From Escherichia phage tunus, in sequence record NC_049816.1: a stretch of DNA of 51,111 nt; one strand, 5' to 3'. The notes beneath the pieces were generated by a model that did not search any database, was not told the origin of the DNA, and saw only the letters and a program-made list of their open reading frames with translations. Shown piece by piece: positions 468 to 46,228 of the stretch (its first letter is position 1; each line of letters begins with the position of its first letter). The translations under genes were made by a program, and so were the position numbers.

Positions 468-1523
468 TCACAGATACTGCCTGAATTGAGCACGAACCCA
501 ATCAGGAGTATCAAGATCAATTTCTGGTTGTCCGTTTGCATACGAAGGCCATTCATCTAACTGCTGGCAAACGTTGAACTTGTTGATCACGCTCATGTAC
601 TGGATGCGCCCGATCTTCAATTGCTCAATATTCATGCGGAAAGCAAGCGGCAAGTAAGGCTCTTTCTTCTCCTGCGCAAGCAATCTTACAATTACTGGCC
701 TTTCCTCGTCTGGATACGCCTTTTTGAATAAGTCATGTTGCAAAGCCATTTTAAGATAATAGCCGTGATTGTAAGCCAGGCGCTGGAAGTCAACCGGATT
801 TGCGCTAACCGTTGTTTTGTAGTCAGTGATAATCACCGCTTCTGGATAGGTGACTTCTTCATAAATCGGCCTGCCTTTTTCGTCGTAACCGTTAATGATT
901 GTTGCCTTTACATCCTTGTTTACGTCAACGTGATCAAGACGCACTTTTACTTTTACGCCGTTGATGATCCCAAATATTGACATTTCACGCTGCGCGGTTG
1001 GGCTGTTCATGCAAGCGTTATGCTCCGGTATGGCCTCAAGTACGCGCCGCATCGCTACACAGGCATCATAATCTTTAGCGTCTATTAACTGCACTCCGTC
1101 CGCTGCGGCCTGGCATTCTGCCATCATTTCGATAAGCCACCACACATTGAGATCCTCGCCGCACTTGTACAGCATTTCCAGTAATTCAGGGTATTGTTTA
1201 CCCGTCGTACCTTTCAGGCCAAAAGATTTCAGCTTTGATGCTAACGCCGTTTGGCTAGTGATCAGATCTTTAAAATCATCCTGCGACGGTGCGCGGCGAT
1301 ATGTTTTTTCGAATAGCTCCTTGCTTTCAAAGTTGGTATGCGACTGCGTACCGAAAACAAGTGCTTTAGTTTCCTGGCGCGGCTTGTACTTCCAGTACGC
1401 CGGGCAAGTGCTGTAAATCTCCGCCAGGCTGGAACCGCTGACATATTCAGCCGTCCACGCGTTAGGATCATGATAAAGCTCGTTGCTCATTTCTTCGCTA
1501 GTGTAGGCGTTAAAATCACTCAT
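468..1523 (-). CDS. PD-(D/E)XK exonuclease (RecE/YqaJ-like recombination exonuclease)
   Basis: 351-aa ORF, RBS AAGGAG; IITDYKTT-type PD-(D/E)XK motif; sits directly upstream of erf and ssb in one leftward unit. Confidence 0.65.
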   Translation of the reverse strand: MSDFNAYTSEEMSNELYHDPNAWTAEYVSGSSLAEIYSTCPAYWKYKPRQETKALVFGTQSHTNFESKELFEKTYRRAPSQDDFKDLITSQTALASKLKSFGLKGTTGKQYPELLEMLYKCGEDLNVWWLIEMMAECQAAADGVQLIDAKDYDACVAMRRVLEAIPEHNACMNSPTAQREMSIFGIINGVKVKVRLDHVDVNKDVKATIINGYDEKGRPIYEEVTYPEAVIITDYKTTVSANPVDFQRLAYNHGYYLKMALQHDLFKKAYPDEERPVIVRLLAQEKKEPYLPLAFRMNIEQLKIGRIQYMSVINKFNVCQQLDEWPSYANGQPEIDLDTPDWVRAQFRQYL

Positions 1524-1553: not shown

Positions 1554-1581
1554 ATTGTAGCCATTTGGTTGATTTAGTCAA
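1554..1581 (-). promoter_or_regulatory. sigma70-type promoter TTGACT-N16-TACAAT for the exonuclease-erf-ssb unit
   Basis: Near-consensus -35 and -10 hexamers about 30 nt upstream of the exonuclease RBS. Confidence 0.45.
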
Positions 1582-1948
1582 TAGCTGTTTTGTTTTTTCT
1601 GTTTTCTAAACGTTCTCAGATGGCAAGAAAACAGATTTGACTCATAAGTTAATGATTAATATGTGTTATTTTTCTTGTTCCCCTGTTCTCTCAGATACGC
1701 CGGATTATATACATACACATGAATGATGGCACATACAGATACTCAGAAAGAAAAATCACCACAAACAACCAAAACCACAAGAAACGCAGACAACAAGAAA
1801 AAACAAATATACATACATAAATAAATAAACTATTGATTTTATATGTATATATCTATTTTATTGATTGTTTATTGATCTTATGTTGTATAAAATTTGCGCT
1901 AAATTTACGCCGCCTTAAATTCGATAACACCGGAAAACAAAAAATAAC

Positions 1949-1993
1949 AAATAGCACTTTTTGCTAAACGCGATGCCCAAGATCGTGTATAGT
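1949..1993 (+). promoter_or_regulatory. Phage promoter module (21-bp box, variant GCTAAAC, + 19-bp spacer + TATAGT)
   Basis: Match to AAATAGCACTTTTTGTTAAAA box, 19-bp spacer, -10 TATAGT; about 30 nt upstream of the 2025 start. Confidence 0.5.
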
Positions 1994-2024
1994 TGAAAAC
2001 AACAACAACTAAGGAGATATAAAG

Positions 2025-2294
2025 ATGAAAAAGTTAATCGCAGTTATCGCCACTGTAGCCGCTCTGACAGGATGCGCAGCGTCGCCTACTGGAAACTTCA
2101 AGGAGATCGATTGCACGGCAAAATTTAACGTTAAAACATTCCCTGTTAACGGATTCCATGAAGTCAAAATTAATGCAGTCCGCGAAAACAGATTCAGCCA
2201 AAAGCAATACAGGTTGAGCGTTGACAATAAAGAAGTTAAATTTATCAACCGTTGGCAAAATGAAAGTAAATTTATTGATTTGAGGTGTAATTAA
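2025..2294 (+). CDS. Small lipoprotein, candidate superinfection-exclusion (Cor/Llp-like) protein
   Basis: 89 aa, RBS AAGGAG; signal peptide MKKLIAVIATVAALTGC with lipobox LTGC. Confidence 0.55.
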   Translation: MKKLIAVIATVAALTGCAASPTGNFKEIDCTAKFNVKTFPVNGFHEVKINAVRENRFSQKQYRLSVDNKEVKFINRWQNESKFIDLRCN

Positions 2295-31879: not shown

Positions 31880-31910
31880 TTCCTTTCCTCCAGTTGTTGA
31901 CTGTTGGCGC

Positions 31911-31939
31911 ATTATAAAAGCTATTTGGTGCGTGTCAAT
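31911..31939 (-). promoter_or_regulatory. sigma70-type early promoter TTGACA-N17-TATAAT (leftward)
   Basis: Consensus hexamers; resembles the promoter at 1554-1581. Confidence 0.55.
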
Positions 31940-32374
31940 GTTTTTGTTGTATTCAAAACGTTACCAATATCGAAAAACTACAAAATCATGCGCAAGTTAT
32001 TGATTTCGCGGCTGTTATTTTTCTGTTCACTCTGTTAACGCAATCCGCCGGAAAAAGTATATATACATATGCAATCCGCCGCGCGCGCAACTATCCATAT
32101 ATACCCACACACAACCACACCATAACCAACAAAAAGCACTGTAACAGTGAGAACAAAAAGAAAACATTATAGATATATATAAATAAATAATCTTTATTTT
32201 CAATGTATTATAGAGGATTTTCTTTGTTTTTTCCGTTTTCGCTACACCGGAAAACCGCGCGGAAACACGCCGCCTGAAATCGGTAACAGGGGTGAACAAA
32301 AGACAACAACCACTGACAGCCAGGCGGAAAAGTGAGGCAAGAGGGGAAGGTTTCACTATCTCCCCTGCAACCAA

Positions 32375-32463
32375 TGATTAAACGTGATTACTTTTCTCAT
32401 CAAATTTGCAAAGGCAATCATCATTTTGACGTGATTTGATTACGAATGATTACTTTTGATTAT
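32375..32463. repeat. Phased GATTA(C) direct repeats (iteron-like)
   Basis: Five TGATTA/GATTAC copies at about 32376, 32386, 32438, 32448, 32458, the last three exactly 10 bp apart, just upstream of the rightward promoter module. Confidence 0.45.
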
Positions 32464-32491
32464 TTCGATCGCAATCCTGGCGATAACCGTC

Positions 32492-32537
32492 AAATAGCAC
32501 TTTTTGTTAAAACTCAGGCCACCTGATCGGGTACATT
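32492..32537 (+). promoter_or_regulatory. Phage promoter module (box + 19-bp spacer + TACATT)
   Basis: Exact box; transcript would start near the conserved CATCGAAACGAACC. Confidence 0.5.
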
Positions 32538-32577
32538 ACACACATCGAAACGAACCGCACTTACTGAGGACCAAACA

Positions 32578-43667: not shown

Positions 43668-45664
43668 TAAACAAACTCCCGTTTTGCAATGTTATCCTCA
43701 CCTTTGCCGTTTTTGCGATGCGTTACGCGTACAGGCGGCATGATGTGATGAGCGTATGACATTATTTTACGCGCATTTCTATAGCTCGCCACCATACCAG
43801 CAATCTTGCGATCCGGTATGTGCTGCAATGCTATTTTTCTCCATATCGTCCTGCAAATGTTGCTTTCTGACTCAGGGAAAAATCTTTCGTATGCCTTGAA
43901 CGTGTCGCCGTTGGCCTCAAGCTCATAGCAAAAAATAATTCCTTTCTGGTTTTTCGTCATATCAACGCGGAAAGATTTAACGTTGCACCAATCGTTTTTG
44001 GTGTAGTGCTTACCGCTTAACTTCTCGTTAGGATCGACAAGAGAAATATCGCAACAACGGCATACTCTCGCCACTACGTCGTTTTTTGTTCCGCAACCGC
44101 GCTTGATTATCTTTTTCGTTCTCGGATCTACCTGGTCCTCGCAAATTCTGTAAGTCCAAAAATGCTCGCATCTCTTCCCGTTATCGTCTACGTGCATACA
44201 TCGGCGAGCGTAAAAGCTGTTTAGCGTTCCACATATCGGACAAGTCTTAGGCTCTTTCCCGTTTGTAAATCTCTTTTGGAATTGCGCTTGCTCAAGGATT
44301 GGATCGAAATACAAATCCCCTAACTCATCCATAGTACCTGCAAAATCCAATACAAGATGATCTTTTTTCTTGAATCCCTGATCAATGTGCCATTGCTTAA
44401 GCAGTCGCATGCCGCGCCCCAAAAGCTGGATAAGCAATGTTAGAGATCCTATCTTTCTCAGTATTACCGAAGTATCCCAAAACGGAACGTTAACGCCAGT
44501 GGTAAGCGCCTGTACCTGGAAGATGTATTTTACTTTTCCCTCGTATGCCTCCCTCAGCCACTCTTTACGCTGATTATCTCCAGTCTTGCCAGTTATGATC
44601 CTGTATTCAACGCCTGGCGGCAGTGCGGCGGCGGCCTCCTTGCAGTGCCTTTCCCCTGCGCATGTAACTAAAACTCCGTTCCTGTCTTTGCATATCTCAT
44701 GGACTTTAGCCATGATTTTCTGTGTCATTGTTGCGTCTTGATGGATCTTTTCTTCCATCTTGCGCAATGTTTTAGCGTCAAAGTCTGAAACGCCATCCTC
44801 GCTACTGGCTTCGAACTCTGAAAGGTCATAACCCAGGTCGCCTACGTCGCCGAAGTTTGTTGGCACTACCGAACCGAATTTGATTAAGTAGTTTGTGTCT
44901 ATGTTAGTCACCTGCTCACGCCAGAATCCCTTTTTGTTCTTATCTTCAACCAGTATTGGAACCACGCCGCGAAATTCAGATCCAGTCATACCGAATATTC
45001 GCAATTCGTGCCCGTATGCCTCGCGACACCTGCGCATCATTTCCATGATTATTACGGTGTACTGTGTGCGTCCTGTTCCGAACATTGGATCGCCATTGGA
45101 ATCAAATTGCTGTTCTTCTCCAATCAGTACTGGCAAATCCTTCTTAGTGGTCATCTGCTGGTAAGATTCATTATTTTCTATCGCGTCCGCGAGATCCTCC
45201 CAATCCACCTGGTGACATTCATCAATACCGATAACGTGCGGAACATAATCACCTAACGACTTAAACAATCCGTTTACTACAGTGCCCTCAGAACCGACCA
45301 CGATCGGAAAGTATGCGCTTTTTGTTTTCAGTCCGGCGCAATAGATTGAGTTTGGCACTCCAAGATTGCTGATCTCTTCCGAATCCTGATCAACAATTTC
45401 AGCCTGGCGAGCAAGGACCATCATTTTCAATCCCATTTTTCGGCATTGCGCCGCAACCATCGCAAACATCAATGTTTTGCCAGCCGACACAGAAGCCTTA
45501 ACAAAGAAAGGATGCTCATAGTTTTTCATGCGCTTTGCGATCTCGGCATACGCAACGCACTGATAAGGATAAGGCACTATATTGCCAACCGTGAATCGCT
45601 CTTGGATGCTTTTTATTACTGCCTCGCCTAACGCTGATATTTGTTTTTCGATATTTGGAATCAT
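43667..45664 (-). CDS. SF2 DNA helicase with C-terminal zinc-finger region
   Basis: 665 aa; motif I VSAGKTL, motif II IDECH; several CxxC pairs in C-terminal third. Confidence 0.8.
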   Translation of the reverse strand: MIPNIEKQISALGEAVIKSIQERFTVGNIVPYPYQCVAYAEIAKRMKNYEHPFFVKASVSAGKTLMFAMVAAQCRKMGLKMMVLARQAEIVDQDSEEISNLGVPNSIYCAGLKTKSAYFPIVVGSEGTVVNGLFKSLGDYVPHVIGIDECHQVDWEDLADAIENNESYQQMTTKKDLPVLIGEEQQFDSNGDPMFGTGRTQYTVIIMEMMRRCREAYGHELRIFGMTGSEFRGVVPILVEDKNKKGFWREQVTNIDTNYLIKFGSVVPTNFGDVGDLGYDLSEFEASSEDGVSDFDAKTLRKMEEKIHQDATMTQKIMAKVHEICKDRNGVLVTCAGERHCKEAAAALPPGVEYRIITGKTGDNQRKEWLREAYEGKVKYIFQVQALTTGVNVPFWDTSVILRKIGSLTLLIQLLGRGMRLLKQWHIDQGFKKKDHLVLDFAGTMDELGDLYFDPILEQAQFQKRFTNGKEPKTCPICGTLNSFYARRCMHVDDNGKRCEHFWTYRICEDQVDPRTKKIIKRGCGTKNDVVARVCRCCDISLVDPNEKLSGKHYTKNDWCNVKSFRVDMTKNQKGIIFCYELEANGDTFKAYERFFPESESNICRTIWRKIALQHIPDRKIAGMVASYRNARKIMSYAHHIMPPVRVTHRKNGKGEDNIAKREFV

Positions 45665-45696
45665 CTTAAACCTTTAAAAAATGCCATTTGGAGTAT

Positions 45697-45742
45697 ATAA
45701 TAGACTCATTACAATAAACTGTTTTAACAAAAAATGCTATGA
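45697..45742 (-). promoter_or_regulatory. Phage promoter module for helicase unit (box + 19-bp spacer + TATTAT)
   Basis: Box variant on minus strand in the divergent region between helicase and HTH gene. Confidence 0.45.
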
Positions 45743-45751
45743 GGTGACTAG

Positions 45752-46228
45752 ATGAAAGATGCACGAATTGCGGTGTCTACGGGTGAGATCGACAAGCGCA
45801 CTATTAACGGTAACAACGGAACGCGACGAGGTAAAGACAAAAAGCCACGAAAACACCGAACCGGATTTCTTATCCTGCGAGATGAGGTAAAAGCAAGCCT
45901 GAAATCTCGCTTGGATATTCTGATCGAGTATTATGGCGGTGTTCCTGCTATGGCTCGACGTCTACGCGTATCTCAGCAAGTCGTTAACCAATGGCGAAAG
46001 CGTGGTATGATTTCAGCCGCTGGAGCACAAAAGGTGCATAACGACTACAAATATAATGGATGCAAAGGATACCGCGCATCATTTTGTCGTCCAGATCTGC
46101 GGTTTGATTCTAACGGTAAGCCTCTTACTACCCGTTGCGACAAATACGAGATGTTGCGCGTAGTCAAAAATTCAGACTACGAACCAGGCGGACGATTCTA
46201 CAAAGGTGATAACAGCACAAATAGCTAA
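45752..46228 (+). CDS. HTH DNA-binding protein (Cro/CI-like helix-turn-helix)
   Basis: 158 aa, RBS GAGGTG; HTH segment MARRLRVSQQVVNQWRKRGMIS; basic N-terminus. Confidence 0.55.
   Translation: MKDARIAVSTGEIDKRTINGNNGTRRGKDKKPRKHRTGFLILRDEVKASLKSRLDILIEYYGGVPAMARRLRVSQQVVNQWRKRGMISAAGAQKVHNDYKYNGCKGYRASFCRPDLRFDSNGKPLTTRCDKYEMLRVVKNSDYEPGGRFYKGDNSTNS

What the first reader, a model, noticed from the sequence alone, without database searches (positions are those of the whole stretch)
1590..2000. Control region R1: divergent promoters, CA-rich tract and AT-rich repeats (paralog of R2)
The 500-bp gap between the exonuclease and lipoprotein genes carries a leftward sigma70 promoter, an unusual CA-rich tract (about 1760-1800), an ATAAATAAATAA run, TATTGAT repeats, a CCGGAAAAC box and the rightward promoter module. 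The same ordered elements recur about 30 kb away in R2, so the genome has two homologous divergent control regions.
Basis: seen in the sequence. Interest (0 to 1): 0.55.

Follow-up and report, generated by a model that had tools for sequence, protein, structure and literature searches.

The report
Twin origin-like DNA modules, T1-like phage
The 500-bp gap upstream of this T1-like phage's recombination exonuclease gene holds one of two ancient, co-evolving copies of a ~360-bp non-coding DNA module (easily melted AT-rich centre, IHF-type sites, inverted repeats) that sits at the same two places in T1-like phages; it is the best current candidate for their unmapped replication origins, though no experiment has tested this.

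Summary
R1 (1591-1950) aligns with R2 (31939-32309) at 66% identity (E 4e-28). Its score is 14-33 sd above shuffles, including shuffles that keep local composition. The window is a Warwickvirus (Drexlerviridae) genome.

The same ~360-bp core lies at both syntenic positions in dozens of relatives: upstream of the exonuclease, and at the main strand switch. It is non-coding and has no conserved RNA structure.

Its parts:
- five to six copies of a 14-mer (TGTTCTTTTTGTTC type) in both orientations, found almost only in these cores;
- two conserved IHF-consensus sites;
- a centre that, with its R2 twin, is the least stable duplex in the 51-kb genome;
- a CA-rich tract that, with its twin, is the most strand-asymmetric segment.

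T1 and Cronobacter phage ESP2949-1 keep the twin low-stability centres with lineage-specific flanking repeats shared by both copies.

Best reading (about 0.45): twin origin-type assembly sites, embedded next to a conserved sigma-70 promoter. Main rival (about 0.3): an upstream control region for the early promoters. Function is inferred, not shown.

The parts
1554..1581 (-). Leftward sigma-70 promoter of the exonuclease-Erf-SSB operon: -35 TTGACT at 1581-1576, 16-nt spacer, -10 TACAAT at 1559-1554
   Evidence: Consensus scan and PWM scan, 12.2 bits. Conserved as TTGACT-16-TA(T/C)AAT, with the -10 lying 34-40 nt before the exonuclease start codon, in 42 of 43 related loci including the T1 clade.
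1591..1950 (+). R1 core: one of two paralogous copies of the ~360-bp non-coding module
   Evidence: blastn E 4e-28 against R2. Shuffle controls. Iterated nhmmer finds it at both syntenic positions in 57 sources. 26-sequence alignments.
1591..1604 (+). Block A: 14-mer repeat copy (TGTTTTTTCTGTTT), rightward orientation. It abuts the -35 region and reads as an A-rich, UP-element-like tract on the promoter strand
   Evidence: In relatives, blocks A and G are extended direct repeats of up to 37 bp.
1645..1657 (+). Block B: IHF-type site (TAAGTTAATGATT, one mismatch to YAANNNNTTGATW)
   Evidence: At this alignment column the consensus is perfect in 8 of 26 cores and within one mismatch in 17 of 26, always in the same orientation. 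The R2 copy at 31993-32005 is perfect.
1664..1705 (+). Block C: 14-mer repeat copies (TGTTATTTTTCTTGTTC, then CCCTGTTC) followed by the GC box ACGCCGGAT
   Evidence: In several relatives the GC box after C and box H carry the same lineage-specific sequence.
1706..1720 (+). Block D: TATATACATACACAT, a (TA)n-like box. The 8-mers ATATACAT and TATACATA occur only in R1 and R2 (4 of 4 genome copies each)
   Evidence: k-mer enrichment; alignment.
1747..1830 (+). CA-rich, G/T-poor tract. Its sequence and length vary among relatives; its strand bias is kept in most
   Evidence: Most CA/GT-asymmetric 60- and 80-bp segment of the 51-kb window (0.80; genome sd 0.15). The R2 tract (32087-32166) ranks second. 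It is the variable-length spacer in the alignments.
1781..1806 (-). Block E: 14-mer repeat copy in inverted orientation (GAAACGCAGACAACAAGAAAAAACAA on the + strand)
   Evidence: minus-orientation matches cluster at this column.
1795..1894 (.). AT-rich centre, holding ATAAATAAATAA (1817-1828), a perfect IHF consensus at 1826-1838 (TAAACTATTGATT) and an imperfect inverted repeat
   Evidence: Least stable 60- and 100-bp duplex segment of the whole window (z 4.8 and 5.3). The R2 centre ranks second at those sizes and first at 40 bp. The IHF consensus is perfect in 16 of 26 cores and within one mismatch in 24 of 26 at this column. Inverted repeat.
1856..1877 (+). Block G position: degenerate here (TTTTATTGATTGTTTATTGATC, includes two of the TATTGAT repeats). 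In relatives it is a clean 14-mer repeat copy, rightward orientation
1893..1925 (+). Block H: GC box region (TTTGCGCTAAATTTACGCCGCCTTAAATTCGAT). ACGCCGCCT is shared with R2
1926..1950 (-). Block I: 14-mer repeat copy in inverted orientation (AACACCGGAAAACAAAAAATAACAA on the + strand), includes the CCGGAAAAC box
1949..2024 (+). Rightward module of the 21-nt direct-repeat family: AAATAGCACTTTTTGCTAAAC (1949-1969), -10-like TATAGT (1988-1993), ribosome-binding site AAGGAG, then the cor ATG at 2025
   Evidence: One of 18 copies in the window. The -10-like hexamer starts at offset 37-38 (0-based) from the A of ATAGCAC in 11 of 18. The family is described in PMC11447400.
31911..31938 (-). R2 leftward promoter: perfect consensus TTGACA-16-TATAAT
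   Evidence: Best sigma-70 match in the genome, 16.2 bits.
31939..32309 (+). R2 core: the paralogue of R1, same orientation, about 30 kb away at the main strand switch
32310..32491 (.). R2-only spacer between the core and the 21-nt repeat, rich in TGATTA / TGAT[CT][AG] hexamers. Candidate packaging (pac) region; not part of R1
   Evidence: 6 hexamers here. A 97-241-bp spacer (173-241 bp in 25 of 26) is present in all 26 R2 loci and is about 5-fold enriched for these hexamers. Position 1 of the T1 record (start of the annotated 2.8-kb terminal repeat) falls in the equivalent cluster.

Best explanation
R1 is one of two paralogous copies of a ~360-bp cis-acting DNA module that T1-like phages (Drexlerviridae) keep at two fixed genome positions. 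It most likely works as a replication-origin-type assembly site.

Proposed mechanism (all steps inferred).
1. A phage protein binds the 14-bp repeats. These occur as direct copies (A, C, G) and inverted copies (E, I).
2. Host IHF bends the DNA at two conserved sites, one of them in the centre. This brings the inverted copies E and G together around the AT-rich centre.
3. That centre is the most easily melted DNA in the genome. It opens, helped by negative supercoiling from the strong promoter that fires away from it.
4. The phage helicase (DUF3987 family) and primase then load. The strand-biased tract beside the centre (CA-rich to its left in this phage) is where loading or priming would occur.

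Shown here: the anatomy, its statistical exceptionality, its conservation at both positions, and the shared change of the two copies within a genome. Inferred: protein binding, melting and replication initiation. The neighbouring promoters are real and may well be coupled to the module, but the module is not just a by-product of divergent promoters.
For: 1. True paralogy, not low complexity.
2. The core is found at both syntenic positions in many relatives (nhmmer).
3. The least stable 60-bp window lies 290-344 bp upstream of the exonuclease start codon in 42 of 43 loci. It lies at the R2 site in nearly all loci that include that site, among them clades with no detectable sequence homology.
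4. In the window, in T1 and in ESP2949-1 the two least stable segments of the whole genome are the R1 and R2 centres.
5. The 14-mer TGTTCTTTTTGTTC, within one mismatch, occurs 31 times in 17.8 kb of cores and 0 times in 507 kb outside them. Its positions and orientations are fixed.
6. IHF consensus sites are conserved at two fixed columns. The window has only 6 perfect sites in all, and 2 are in the cores.
7. The flanking repeats are lineage-specific but shared by both copies within a genome. T1 has TGTTACA/TGTAACA, with 6 of 6 genome copies in its two regions. ESP2949-1 has C-rich and G-rich inverted arms around a near-identical 42-nt centre in both copies.
8. The module is kept in ESP2949-1 R1 without divergent genes.
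9. There is no conserved ORF and no conserved RNA structure, so it acts as DNA.
10. The origin of T1-like phages is unidentified according to PMC11447400. The phage encodes its own primase and two helicases.
Against: - No experiment links these regions to replication. None was found in the literature searches.
- There is no DnaA box within one mismatch, and GATC is not enriched.
- The repeat-binding protein is unidentified. The helicase and primase have no solved relatives by sequence that would reveal an origin-binding domain.
- The left edge of the core always abuts a strong promoter at a nearly fixed distance. A transcriptional role would explain that equally well.
- The 14-mer shares the 9-mer CTTTTTGTT with the 21-nt promoter-associated repeat. 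This hints at a transcription factor or an RNA polymerase alpha-subunit contact rather than an initiator.
- In this particular phage the 14-mer copies are degenerate: 6 of 18 three-mismatch matches in the window lie in R1 or R2.
- The CA-rich bias is not kept in T1.
- Phages of this kind may rely largely on recombination-dependent replication.
Confidence: 0.45

Rival explanations
1. Upstream control region of the early promoters, with no replication role. The core would be an extended UP-element, IHF and activator/repressor platform. It would set the strength or timing of the strong sigma-70 promoter at its left edge, and possibly of internal or rightward promoters. The 14-mer repeats would be sites for a phage transcription factor (for example the Cro/YdaS-like 158-aa regulator at 45752-46228) or for the RNA polymerase alpha subunit.
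For: - The core abuts conserved, strong sigma-70 promoters in both copies. The R2 promoter is the best match in the genome.
- Block A reads as an A-tract immediately upstream of the -35.
- The IHF site in block B lies about 100 bp upstream of the predicted start.
- The distance from the AT-rich centre to the exonuclease start codon is tightly conserved.
- The 14-mer shares CTTTTTGTT with the promoter-associated 21-nt repeat.
- The AT-rich centre gives many promoter-like PWM hits on both strands.
Against: - 360 bp with inverted repeats 85 bp apart around the genome's least stable DNA is far more than known upstream promoter elements need.
- In R2 cores the distance from promoter to centre varies by more than 100 bp through insertions. 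Some R2 copies keep only the right half, far from the promoter.
- The third divergent promoter junction has no core.
- Promoter-like hits in the AT-rich centre lack a conserved -35.
Confidence: 0.3
2. Another DNA transaction site: a recombination hotspot or module-exchange junction, an accessory site for packaging, or an architectural element that pairs the two loci through IHF and a bridging protein.
For: - R2 lies next to a hexamer-rich spacer where the terminal repeat of the T1 record begins.
- Mosaic breakpoints fall at the edges of R2, and the genes flanking R2 are highly variable.
- R1 sits upstream of the exonuclease-Erf-SSB recombination operon.
- The two copies show signs of sequence exchange.
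- GT/CA-rich DNA is a preferred pairing substrate for recombinases (my own knowledge).
Against: - R1 has no hexamer spacer. One pac fragment is what is reported for TLS.
- The two copies are direct repeats at 66% identity, so recombination between them would delete 30 kb.
- Nothing here tests pairing.
Confidence: 0.12
3. A transcribed product: a non-coding RNA (for example a CA-rich unstructured RNA acting as a Rho or Hfq ligand) or small peptides, as annotated in some GenBank records.
For: - Three small hypothetical CDS are annotated inside the R1 equivalent of phage Kalemo and others.
- The CA-rich tract resembles a C-rich, G-poor Rho-loading sequence (my own knowledge).
- Promoter-like hexamers flank it.
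Against: - No Rfam match even at E = 1.
- RNAalifold predicts 0 consensus pairs on either strand.
- Single-sequence folds are unremarkable, z -1.5 to -2.7.
- The longest ORFs differ in strand and position among relatives, and indel lengths are mostly not multiples of 3 (219 of 261).
- The CA tract varies in sequence, and the bias is absent in T1.
Confidence: 0.05
4. A functionless relic of an old duplication, or a compositional artefact.
For: AT-rich and low-complexity tracts can inflate similarity scores.
Against: - z is 14-16 even with local composition preserved.
- Blocks are conserved at both loci across genera.
- The duplex-stability and strand-bias ranks are extreme and conserved.
Confidence: 0.02

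Closest known systems
Bacillus phage SPP1 oriL / oriR (two distant regions bound by the replisome organiser G38P; recalled from memory, not re-read here)
   Same: Two discrete, homologous non-coding regions tens of kb apart in a ~45-50-kb pac-type siphovirus genome. Each combines repeated binding boxes with an AT-rich segment.
   Different: There is no sequence relationship. The binding protein here is unknown and initiation is untested. The cores here are ~360 bp, have IHF sites, and sit next to strong promoters.
Iteron-type origins that use IHF (lambda ori; plasmids pSC101 and R6K gamma ori; from memory)
   Same: Multiple copies of a short repeat, an adjacent AT-rich unwinding element, and IHF-type bending sites.
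   Different: The repeats here are in both orientations and flank the AT-rich centre. There is no DnaA box. No initiator gene overlaps or adjoins the element. There are two copies per genome.
Satellite phage P4 ori and crr (alpha protein type-I iterons, TGTTCACC; from memory)
   Same: Two cis regions that share a repeat. The repeat resembles TGTTCAC / GTGAACA, which is present in blocks C and I of many cores. The phage primase is annotated in the T1 record as alpha-protein-like.
   Different: The primase here is only 335 aa, with no matching helicase or DNA-binding domains detected. The resemblance rests on a 7-mer only. The spacing is 30 kb rather than 4.5 kb.
Herpes simplex virus oriS / oriL (from memory)
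   Same: A quasi-palindrome with an AT-rich centre flanked by inverted binding sites, multiple paralogous copies, and a position between or next to strong promoters.
   Different: An unrelated virus and unrelated proteins. This is an architectural analogy only.
Transcription-primed phage origins (T7 primary origin; T4 oriF and oriG; from memory)
   Same: A promoter-like -10 element bordering an AT-rich unwinding segment. The strand bias would make leftward transcripts G/U-rich.
   Different: There is no conserved -35 or activator box for an internal promoter. No transcript data exist.
21-nt direct repeat of T1-like phages (aaATAGCACnnnTTGnTAAAA; PMC11447400)
   Same: [quoted passage not shown]
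   Different: This accounts for only the last ~75 bp of the finding, not the 360-bp core. The function of the repeat is itself unknown.

Membership tests
Iteron / unwinding-element replication origin | Several copies of a short repeat that could bind an initiator | tested here: met
   The 14-mer TGTTCTTTTTGTTC type sits at five fixed positions (A, C, G direct; E, I inverted). Within one mismatch: 31 matches inside cores against 0 in 507 kb outside. This is sequence evidence only. The copies in this window are degenerate.
Iteron / unwinding-element replication origin | An adjacent, exceptionally AT-rich, easily unwound segment | tested here: met
   The R1 and R2 centres are the two least stable segments of the genome in the window (z 4.2-5.3), in T1 (z 5.3-5.9) and in ESP2949-1 at 40 bp (z 4.6-4.7). 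The same holds at locus level.
Iteron / unwinding-element replication origin | Host-factor sites (IHF and/or DnaA) | tested here: inconclusive
   The IHF consensus is conserved at two columns (within one mismatch in 24 of 26 and 17 of 26 cores). No DnaA box lies within one mismatch, and GATC is not enriched.
Iteron / unwinding-element replication origin | Replication actually initiates there, or the region supports replication in cis | not testable with these tools
   This needs marker-frequency sequencing, 2-D gels or plasmid-amplification assays. GC skew is uninformative because it follows gene orientation.
Iteron / unwinding-element replication origin | A cognate initiator protein that binds the repeats | not tested
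   Candidates are encoded: the DUF3987 helicase, the zinc-ribbon primase and a Cro/YdaS-like regulator. No binding domain was identified.
Divergent promoter control region | Promoters firing outward on both sides | tested here: inconclusive
   A leftward sigma-70 promoter is conserved in 42 of 43 loci, and a rightward 21-nt-repeat module is present in the window. However, ESP2949-1 keeps the R1 core with no rightward gene or module, and the window's third divergent junction lacks a core.
21-nt direct-repeat family of T1-like phages | Match to aaATAGCACnnnTTGnTAAAA, intergenic, co-directional with the next gene and about 76 nt before its start codon | tested here: met
   1949-1969 AAATAGCACTTTTTGCTAAAC, 74 nt before the cor ATG. 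One of 18 copies.
Structured non-coding RNA | Conserved secondary structure, covariation, or a match to a known RNA family | tested here: not met
   Rfam: no match at gathering score or at E = 1. RNAalifold: 0 consensus pairs on both strands.
Protein-coding small ORFs (as annotated in some GenBank records) | A conserved reading frame | tested here: not met
   The longest ORFs differ in strand and position among the 26 cores. Indel lengths mod 3 are 1:182, 2:37, 0:42.
pac site of the P1 type (hexamer clusters, IHF, Dam) | Clusters of TGATC(A/G)-like hexamers flanking a cleavage region | tested here: not met
   The R1 core abuts the 21-nt repeat with no spacer, and R1 has one TGATTA. The hexamer cluster is specific to R2.

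The most novel reading that the evidence does not exclude
R1 and R2 are the two long-sought replication origins of T1-like phages. On this reading they form a family-wide pair of IHF-bent, quasi-palindromic unwinding elements whose flanking repeats change together in both copies, by gene conversion or by co-evolution with a phage initiator. One copy (R2) would be physically coupled to the packaging start site and to the strongest early promoter, so that early transcription, replication start and packaging are organised from one ~700-bp hub.
Probability: 0.4. Interest if true: 0.7.

Novelty: new member of a known kind. Interest (0 to 1): 0.58.

Why it matters
T1 is one of the seven classic T phages, yet its replication origin has never been mapped. 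A 2024 re-annotation of its relative TLS reports that lambda-type tandem repeats (iterons) are found neither in its helicase gene nor elsewhere in the genome, and does not identify an origin (PMC11447400). This analysis points to two specific ~360-bp targets that are conserved across genera. It gives defined sub-elements to mutate: the 14-mer repeats, the two IHF sites, the AT-rich centre and the strand-biased arms. The question 'where and how does T1 start replication?' thereby becomes directly testable. The analysis also shows that the small 'hypothetical protein' genes annotated in this gap in several GenBank records are probably spurious. Finally, it offers a natural case of two distant non-coding paralogues that evolve in concert.

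Tried and rejected
- Structured RNA. Rfam at gathering score on the whole window and at E = 1 on 1450-2100 gave nothing. Single-sequence folds of both strands of both cores gave z -1.5 to -2.7. RNAalifold on 26 cores, both strands, and on the E-F-G sub-alignment gave 0 pairs.
- Small ORFs. There is no conserved frame.
- DnaA boxes and GATC clustering. Neither is present.
- GC skew as an origin marker. It tracks gene orientation only, and there is no shift inside the 29-kb co-oriented block.
- Similarity to plasmids or E. coli chromosomes that might carry an annotated origin. None.
- Literature on T1 origin, transcription starts or intergenic elements. Only the TLS paper was relevant. A preprint that mentions SECphi27 intergenic repeats concerns homopolymer slippage.
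- Solved-structure relatives of the helicase and primase, sought to find an origin-binding domain. None.
- Internal sigma-70 promoters. The AT-rich centre gives many PWM hits on both strands but no conserved -35, so none is called.
- Tandem repeats. Only trivial ones.
- Rank test for within-genome R1-R2 similarity. The signal is weak (mean rank 4.2 of 13) and is confounded by truncated R2 copies and by relatedness. The ESP2949-1 and T1 comparisons are the stronger evidence.
- Exact search for the ESP2949-1 inverted arms in IMG/VR. It found only that phage's R2, because the R1 arms differ by a few bases.
- Neighbouring protein of R2 as a handle for orthologous loci. Only 2 loci were found because the flanking genes are variable. 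The helicase gene was used instead.
Full report
WHAT THE WINDOW IS. The 51,111-bp window is essentially a complete genome of a T1-like coliphage. The R1 region is 99.7% identical to Escherichia phages SECphi27, XY3 and EC195, and R2 is 100% identical to SLUR29. SECphi27 belongs to Warwickvirus, Tempevirinae, Drexlerviridae. R1 is the 501-bp gap (1524-2024) between the exonuclease VIII/RecE-like gene (468-1523, minus strand) and the cor-like lipoprotein gene (2025-2294, plus strand). R2 (31880-32577) is the main strand-switch region of the genome. In phage T1 the sequence record is opened at this same junction.

CHECK OF THE OBSERVATION. R1 1591-1950 aligns with R2 31939-32309 at 65.9% identity over 381 columns, with E 4e-28 against the whole window (MAFFT alignment). 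The Smith-Waterman score of 79 compares with 13.1 +/- 2.0 for dinucleotide shuffles. It compares with 21.9 +/- 3.6 when R1 is shuffled only within 30-bp blocks, which keeps the order of AT-rich and CA-rich tracts, and with a maximum of 18 against any other segment of the genome. The similarity is therefore real homology and not low complexity. The window contains only two copies.

HOW WIDELY IT IS CONSERVED. I used the exonuclease and the DUF3987 helicase as handles and fetched 43 and 45 related loci from IMG/VR. An iterated nhmmer profile built from the two window copies finds the core, often full-length, at both positions in many phages. One position is immediately upstream of the exonuclease. 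The other is 3.2-5.6 kb upstream of the helicase, at the strand switch. Among the phages is TLS (L043, R1 position). The core has no similarity to plasmids or E. coli chromosomes.

ANATOMY. Alignments of 26 non-redundant cores and self-comparisons give this order:
- Block A: a 14-mer of the TGTTCTTTTTGTTC type.
- Block B: AACAAAA followed by an IHF-type site.
- Block C: two more 14-mer-like copies, then a GC box.
- Block D: a (TA)n-like box.
- A CA-rich spacer of variable length.
- Block E: the 14-mer, inverted.
- Block F: the AT-rich centre, holding a second IHF-type site.
- Block G: the 14-mer, direct. In relatives it forms an extended direct repeat with A of up to 37 bp.
- Block H: a GC box, which in several phages has the same lineage-specific sequence as the box after C.
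- Block I: the 14-mer, inverted.

The profile also matches its own reverse strand (E about 1e-21). The stretch from C to I is thus a large imperfect palindrome centred on F. The 14-mer, within one mismatch, occurs 31 times in 17.8 kb of cores and never in 507 kb of flanking phage DNA. The consensus was derived from the cores, so this shows exclusivity rather than independent discovery. In this particular window the copies are degenerate. The IHF consensus YAANNNNTTGATW is perfect in 16 of 26 cores, and within one mismatch in 24 of 26, at block F. At block B it is perfect in 8 of 26 and within one mismatch in 17 of 26. It is always in one orientation and occurs essentially nowhere else in the cores. 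The whole window has only six perfect sites, and two are in R1 and R2.

PHYSICAL EXTREMES. By nearest-neighbour duplex stability, the R1 centre (about 1795-1894) and the R2 centre (about 32131-32230) are the two least stable segments of the genome at 40, 60 and 100 bp (z 4.2-5.3). The CA-rich tracts 1747-1830 and 32087-32166 are the two most CA/GT-asymmetric segments (0.80 and 0.67 against sd 0.15). T1's two regions are barely alignable with these. Even so, the two least stable segments of the T1 genome are again at the two syntenic positions (z 5.3-5.9). The 7-mer TGTTACA/TGTAACA occurs six times in T1, all in those two regions. In 42 of 43 exonuclease loci the least stable 60-mer lies 290-344 bp upstream of the start codon. 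In nearly all helicase loci that include the junction, the least stable 60-mer lies at R2. This holds even in clades with no profile hit.

A DISTANT RELATIVE. Cronobacter phage ESP2949-1 (Kyungwonvirus, 50% GC) keeps both elements. Its two least stable 40-mers are at the R1 and R2 equivalents. Both copies share a near-identical 42-nt centre (AGATAAATAAATAAATAAACCTTTAWTTTTCATATATATCTA). In both copies that centre is flanked by C-rich and G-rich inverted arms that Warwickvirus lacks. The two copies of one genome therefore change together, and the inverted symmetry around the centre is kept while the arm sequence is replaced. In this phage the gene on the far side of R1 runs in the same direction as the exonuclease, and there is no rightward promoter module. 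The core therefore does not depend on a divergent-promoter setting.

WHAT IT IS NOT. It is not a structured RNA. Rfam gives nothing even at E = 1, RNAalifold gives 0 consensus pairs on both strands, and single-sequence folds are unremarkable. It is not coding. ORFs differ in strand and place, and 219 of 261 indels are not multiples of three. The three small CDS annotated here in phage Kalemo and others are therefore probably spurious. It has no DnaA box, and GATC is not enriched. GC skew follows gene orientation and is uninformative.

THE FLANKING PROMOTERS. The leftward promoter is well supported. TTGACT-16-TA(T/C)AAT is conserved in 42 of 43 loci. The R2 counterpart is a perfect consensus and the best sigma-70 match in the genome. 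The rightward 'promoter module' is a copy of the 21-nt direct repeat already described for TLS, T1, Rtp and Rogue1, whose function is unknown (PMC11447400). The window has 18 copies.

INTERPRETATION. The combination fits an origin-type assembly site best:
- repeats in both orientations;
- IHF-type bends;
- the most meltable DNA of the genome;
- strand-biased flanks;
- two co-evolving copies;
- persistence without divergent genes.

The closest analogues, recalled from memory, are SPP1 oriL/oriR, P4 ori/crr, iteron origins that use IHF, and, architecturally, herpesvirus oriS/oriL. I put this reading at about 0.45. Every functional step in it is inferred: binding, bending, melting and loading. 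The main rival (about 0.3) is an upstream control platform for the early promoters. In its favour, the core always abuts a strong promoter at a nearly fixed distance, and its 14-mer shares CTTTTTGTT with the promoter-associated 21-nt repeat. Against it, the promoter-to-centre distance varies by more than 100 bp among R2 copies, some R2 copies keep only the distal half, and the third divergent junction has no core. The two roles are not mutually exclusive. A recombination, packaging or architectural role (about 0.12) and a transcribed product (about 0.05) are less likely.

NOVELTY. I found no description of this paralogous pair. The TLS paper reports that lambda-type tandem repeats (iterons) are found neither in its helicase gene nor elsewhere in the genome, and it does not identify an origin. 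TLS nevertheless carries the R1 core (L043). If the origin reading is right, this is a new member of a known kind. Its practical value is a concrete, testable location for the origins of a classic phage.

Noticed in passing
window: 18 sites, e.g. 1951, 26634(-), 31149(-), 32494, 36104, 42202(-), 43251(-): In the 21-nt direct-repeat modules, a -10-like hexamer (T/C)A(T/A)A(A/G)T starts at offset 37-38 (0-based) from the A of ATAGCAC in 11 of 18 copies. The -35-like TTGTTA is therefore 21 nt from the -10, too far for a standard sigma-70 promoter. In most copies that spacer holds a GC-rich perfect palindrome (stem 5-8 bp) whose sequence differs from copy to copy. Mean stem length is 5.1 against 3.45 in shuffles. 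The published description does not mention this.
   Followed up: partly
window 32310-32491; R2 loci L049-L093; T1 (L003) record ends: An R2-only spacer (97-241 bp; 173-241 bp in 25 of 26 loci) lies between the core and the 21-nt repeat in all 26 R2 loci. It is about 5-fold enriched in TGAT[CT][AG] hexamers (1.93 against 0.37 per 100 bp). Position 1 of the T1 record, where the annotated 2.8-kb terminal repeat starts, falls inside the equivalent hexamer cluster, about 270 bp from the AT-rich centre. This makes it a candidate pac region, reminiscent of the hexamer clusters of P1 pac (from memory).
   Followed up: partly
L001 6238-6568 (phage Kalemo) and equivalents in tunus, KMB46, G3B1 and others: Several GenBank records annotate three to five small 'hypothetical protein' genes inside the R1 gap. 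No reading frame is conserved across relatives, so these calls are probably spurious.
   Followed up: yes
window R2 31939-32309 against R1 and R2 of other phages: R2 cores are much more diverged among phages than R1 cores. This window's R2 is more similar to the R1 cores of several clades (scores 67-83) than to most other R2 cores (29-61). This suggests R2 was overwritten from an R1-like copy, or that the two positions evolve at very unequal rates. Some R2 copies (Salmonella and Citrobacter phages L065, L068, L091) keep only the right half, blocks E to I.
   Followed up: partly
L045 2261-2803 (Shigella phage 2019SD1): The R1 core is rearranged. The right half lies 33 bp from the exonuclease match. 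The left half maps about 200 bp further on, within the span of the lengthened exonuclease alignment. This could be a rearrangement, an insertion or an assembly problem.
   Followed up: no
whole window: GATC occurs 315 times, about 1 per 162 bp, which is above random expectation. The two cores hold only one GATC between them. The phage family encodes its own Dam-type methyltransferase.
   Followed up: no
window 45664-45752: The third divergent junction (helicase operon against regulator-primase operon) is only 88 bp. It has a sigma-70-like promoter (TTTAAA-17-TATAAT) and a 21-nt repeat but no core. Divergent promoters in this genome therefore do not need the core.
   Followed up: yes
GenBank records LL5, PHB17, Pocis76, XY3, TLS, haarsle, Rtp (start at R2); BEK26, BEC3, BEK12B (ends in or near R1): Many deposited genomes are opened at R2, probably following the T1 convention. 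A few from one study break in or next to R1. BEC3 is cut inside the AT-rich centre. This may reflect assembly or coverage problems at these extreme sequences rather than physical ends.
   Followed up: no
L095 24030-24130 and 43470-43545 (Cronobacter phage ESP2949-1): The AT-rich centres are flanked by near-perfect GC-rich inverted repeats: CTCCCCCTCCCCCCT ... AGGGGGGAGGGGGAG in R2 and a shorter version in R1. These give strong cruciform or hairpin potential that the Warwickvirus copies lack.
   Followed up: partly
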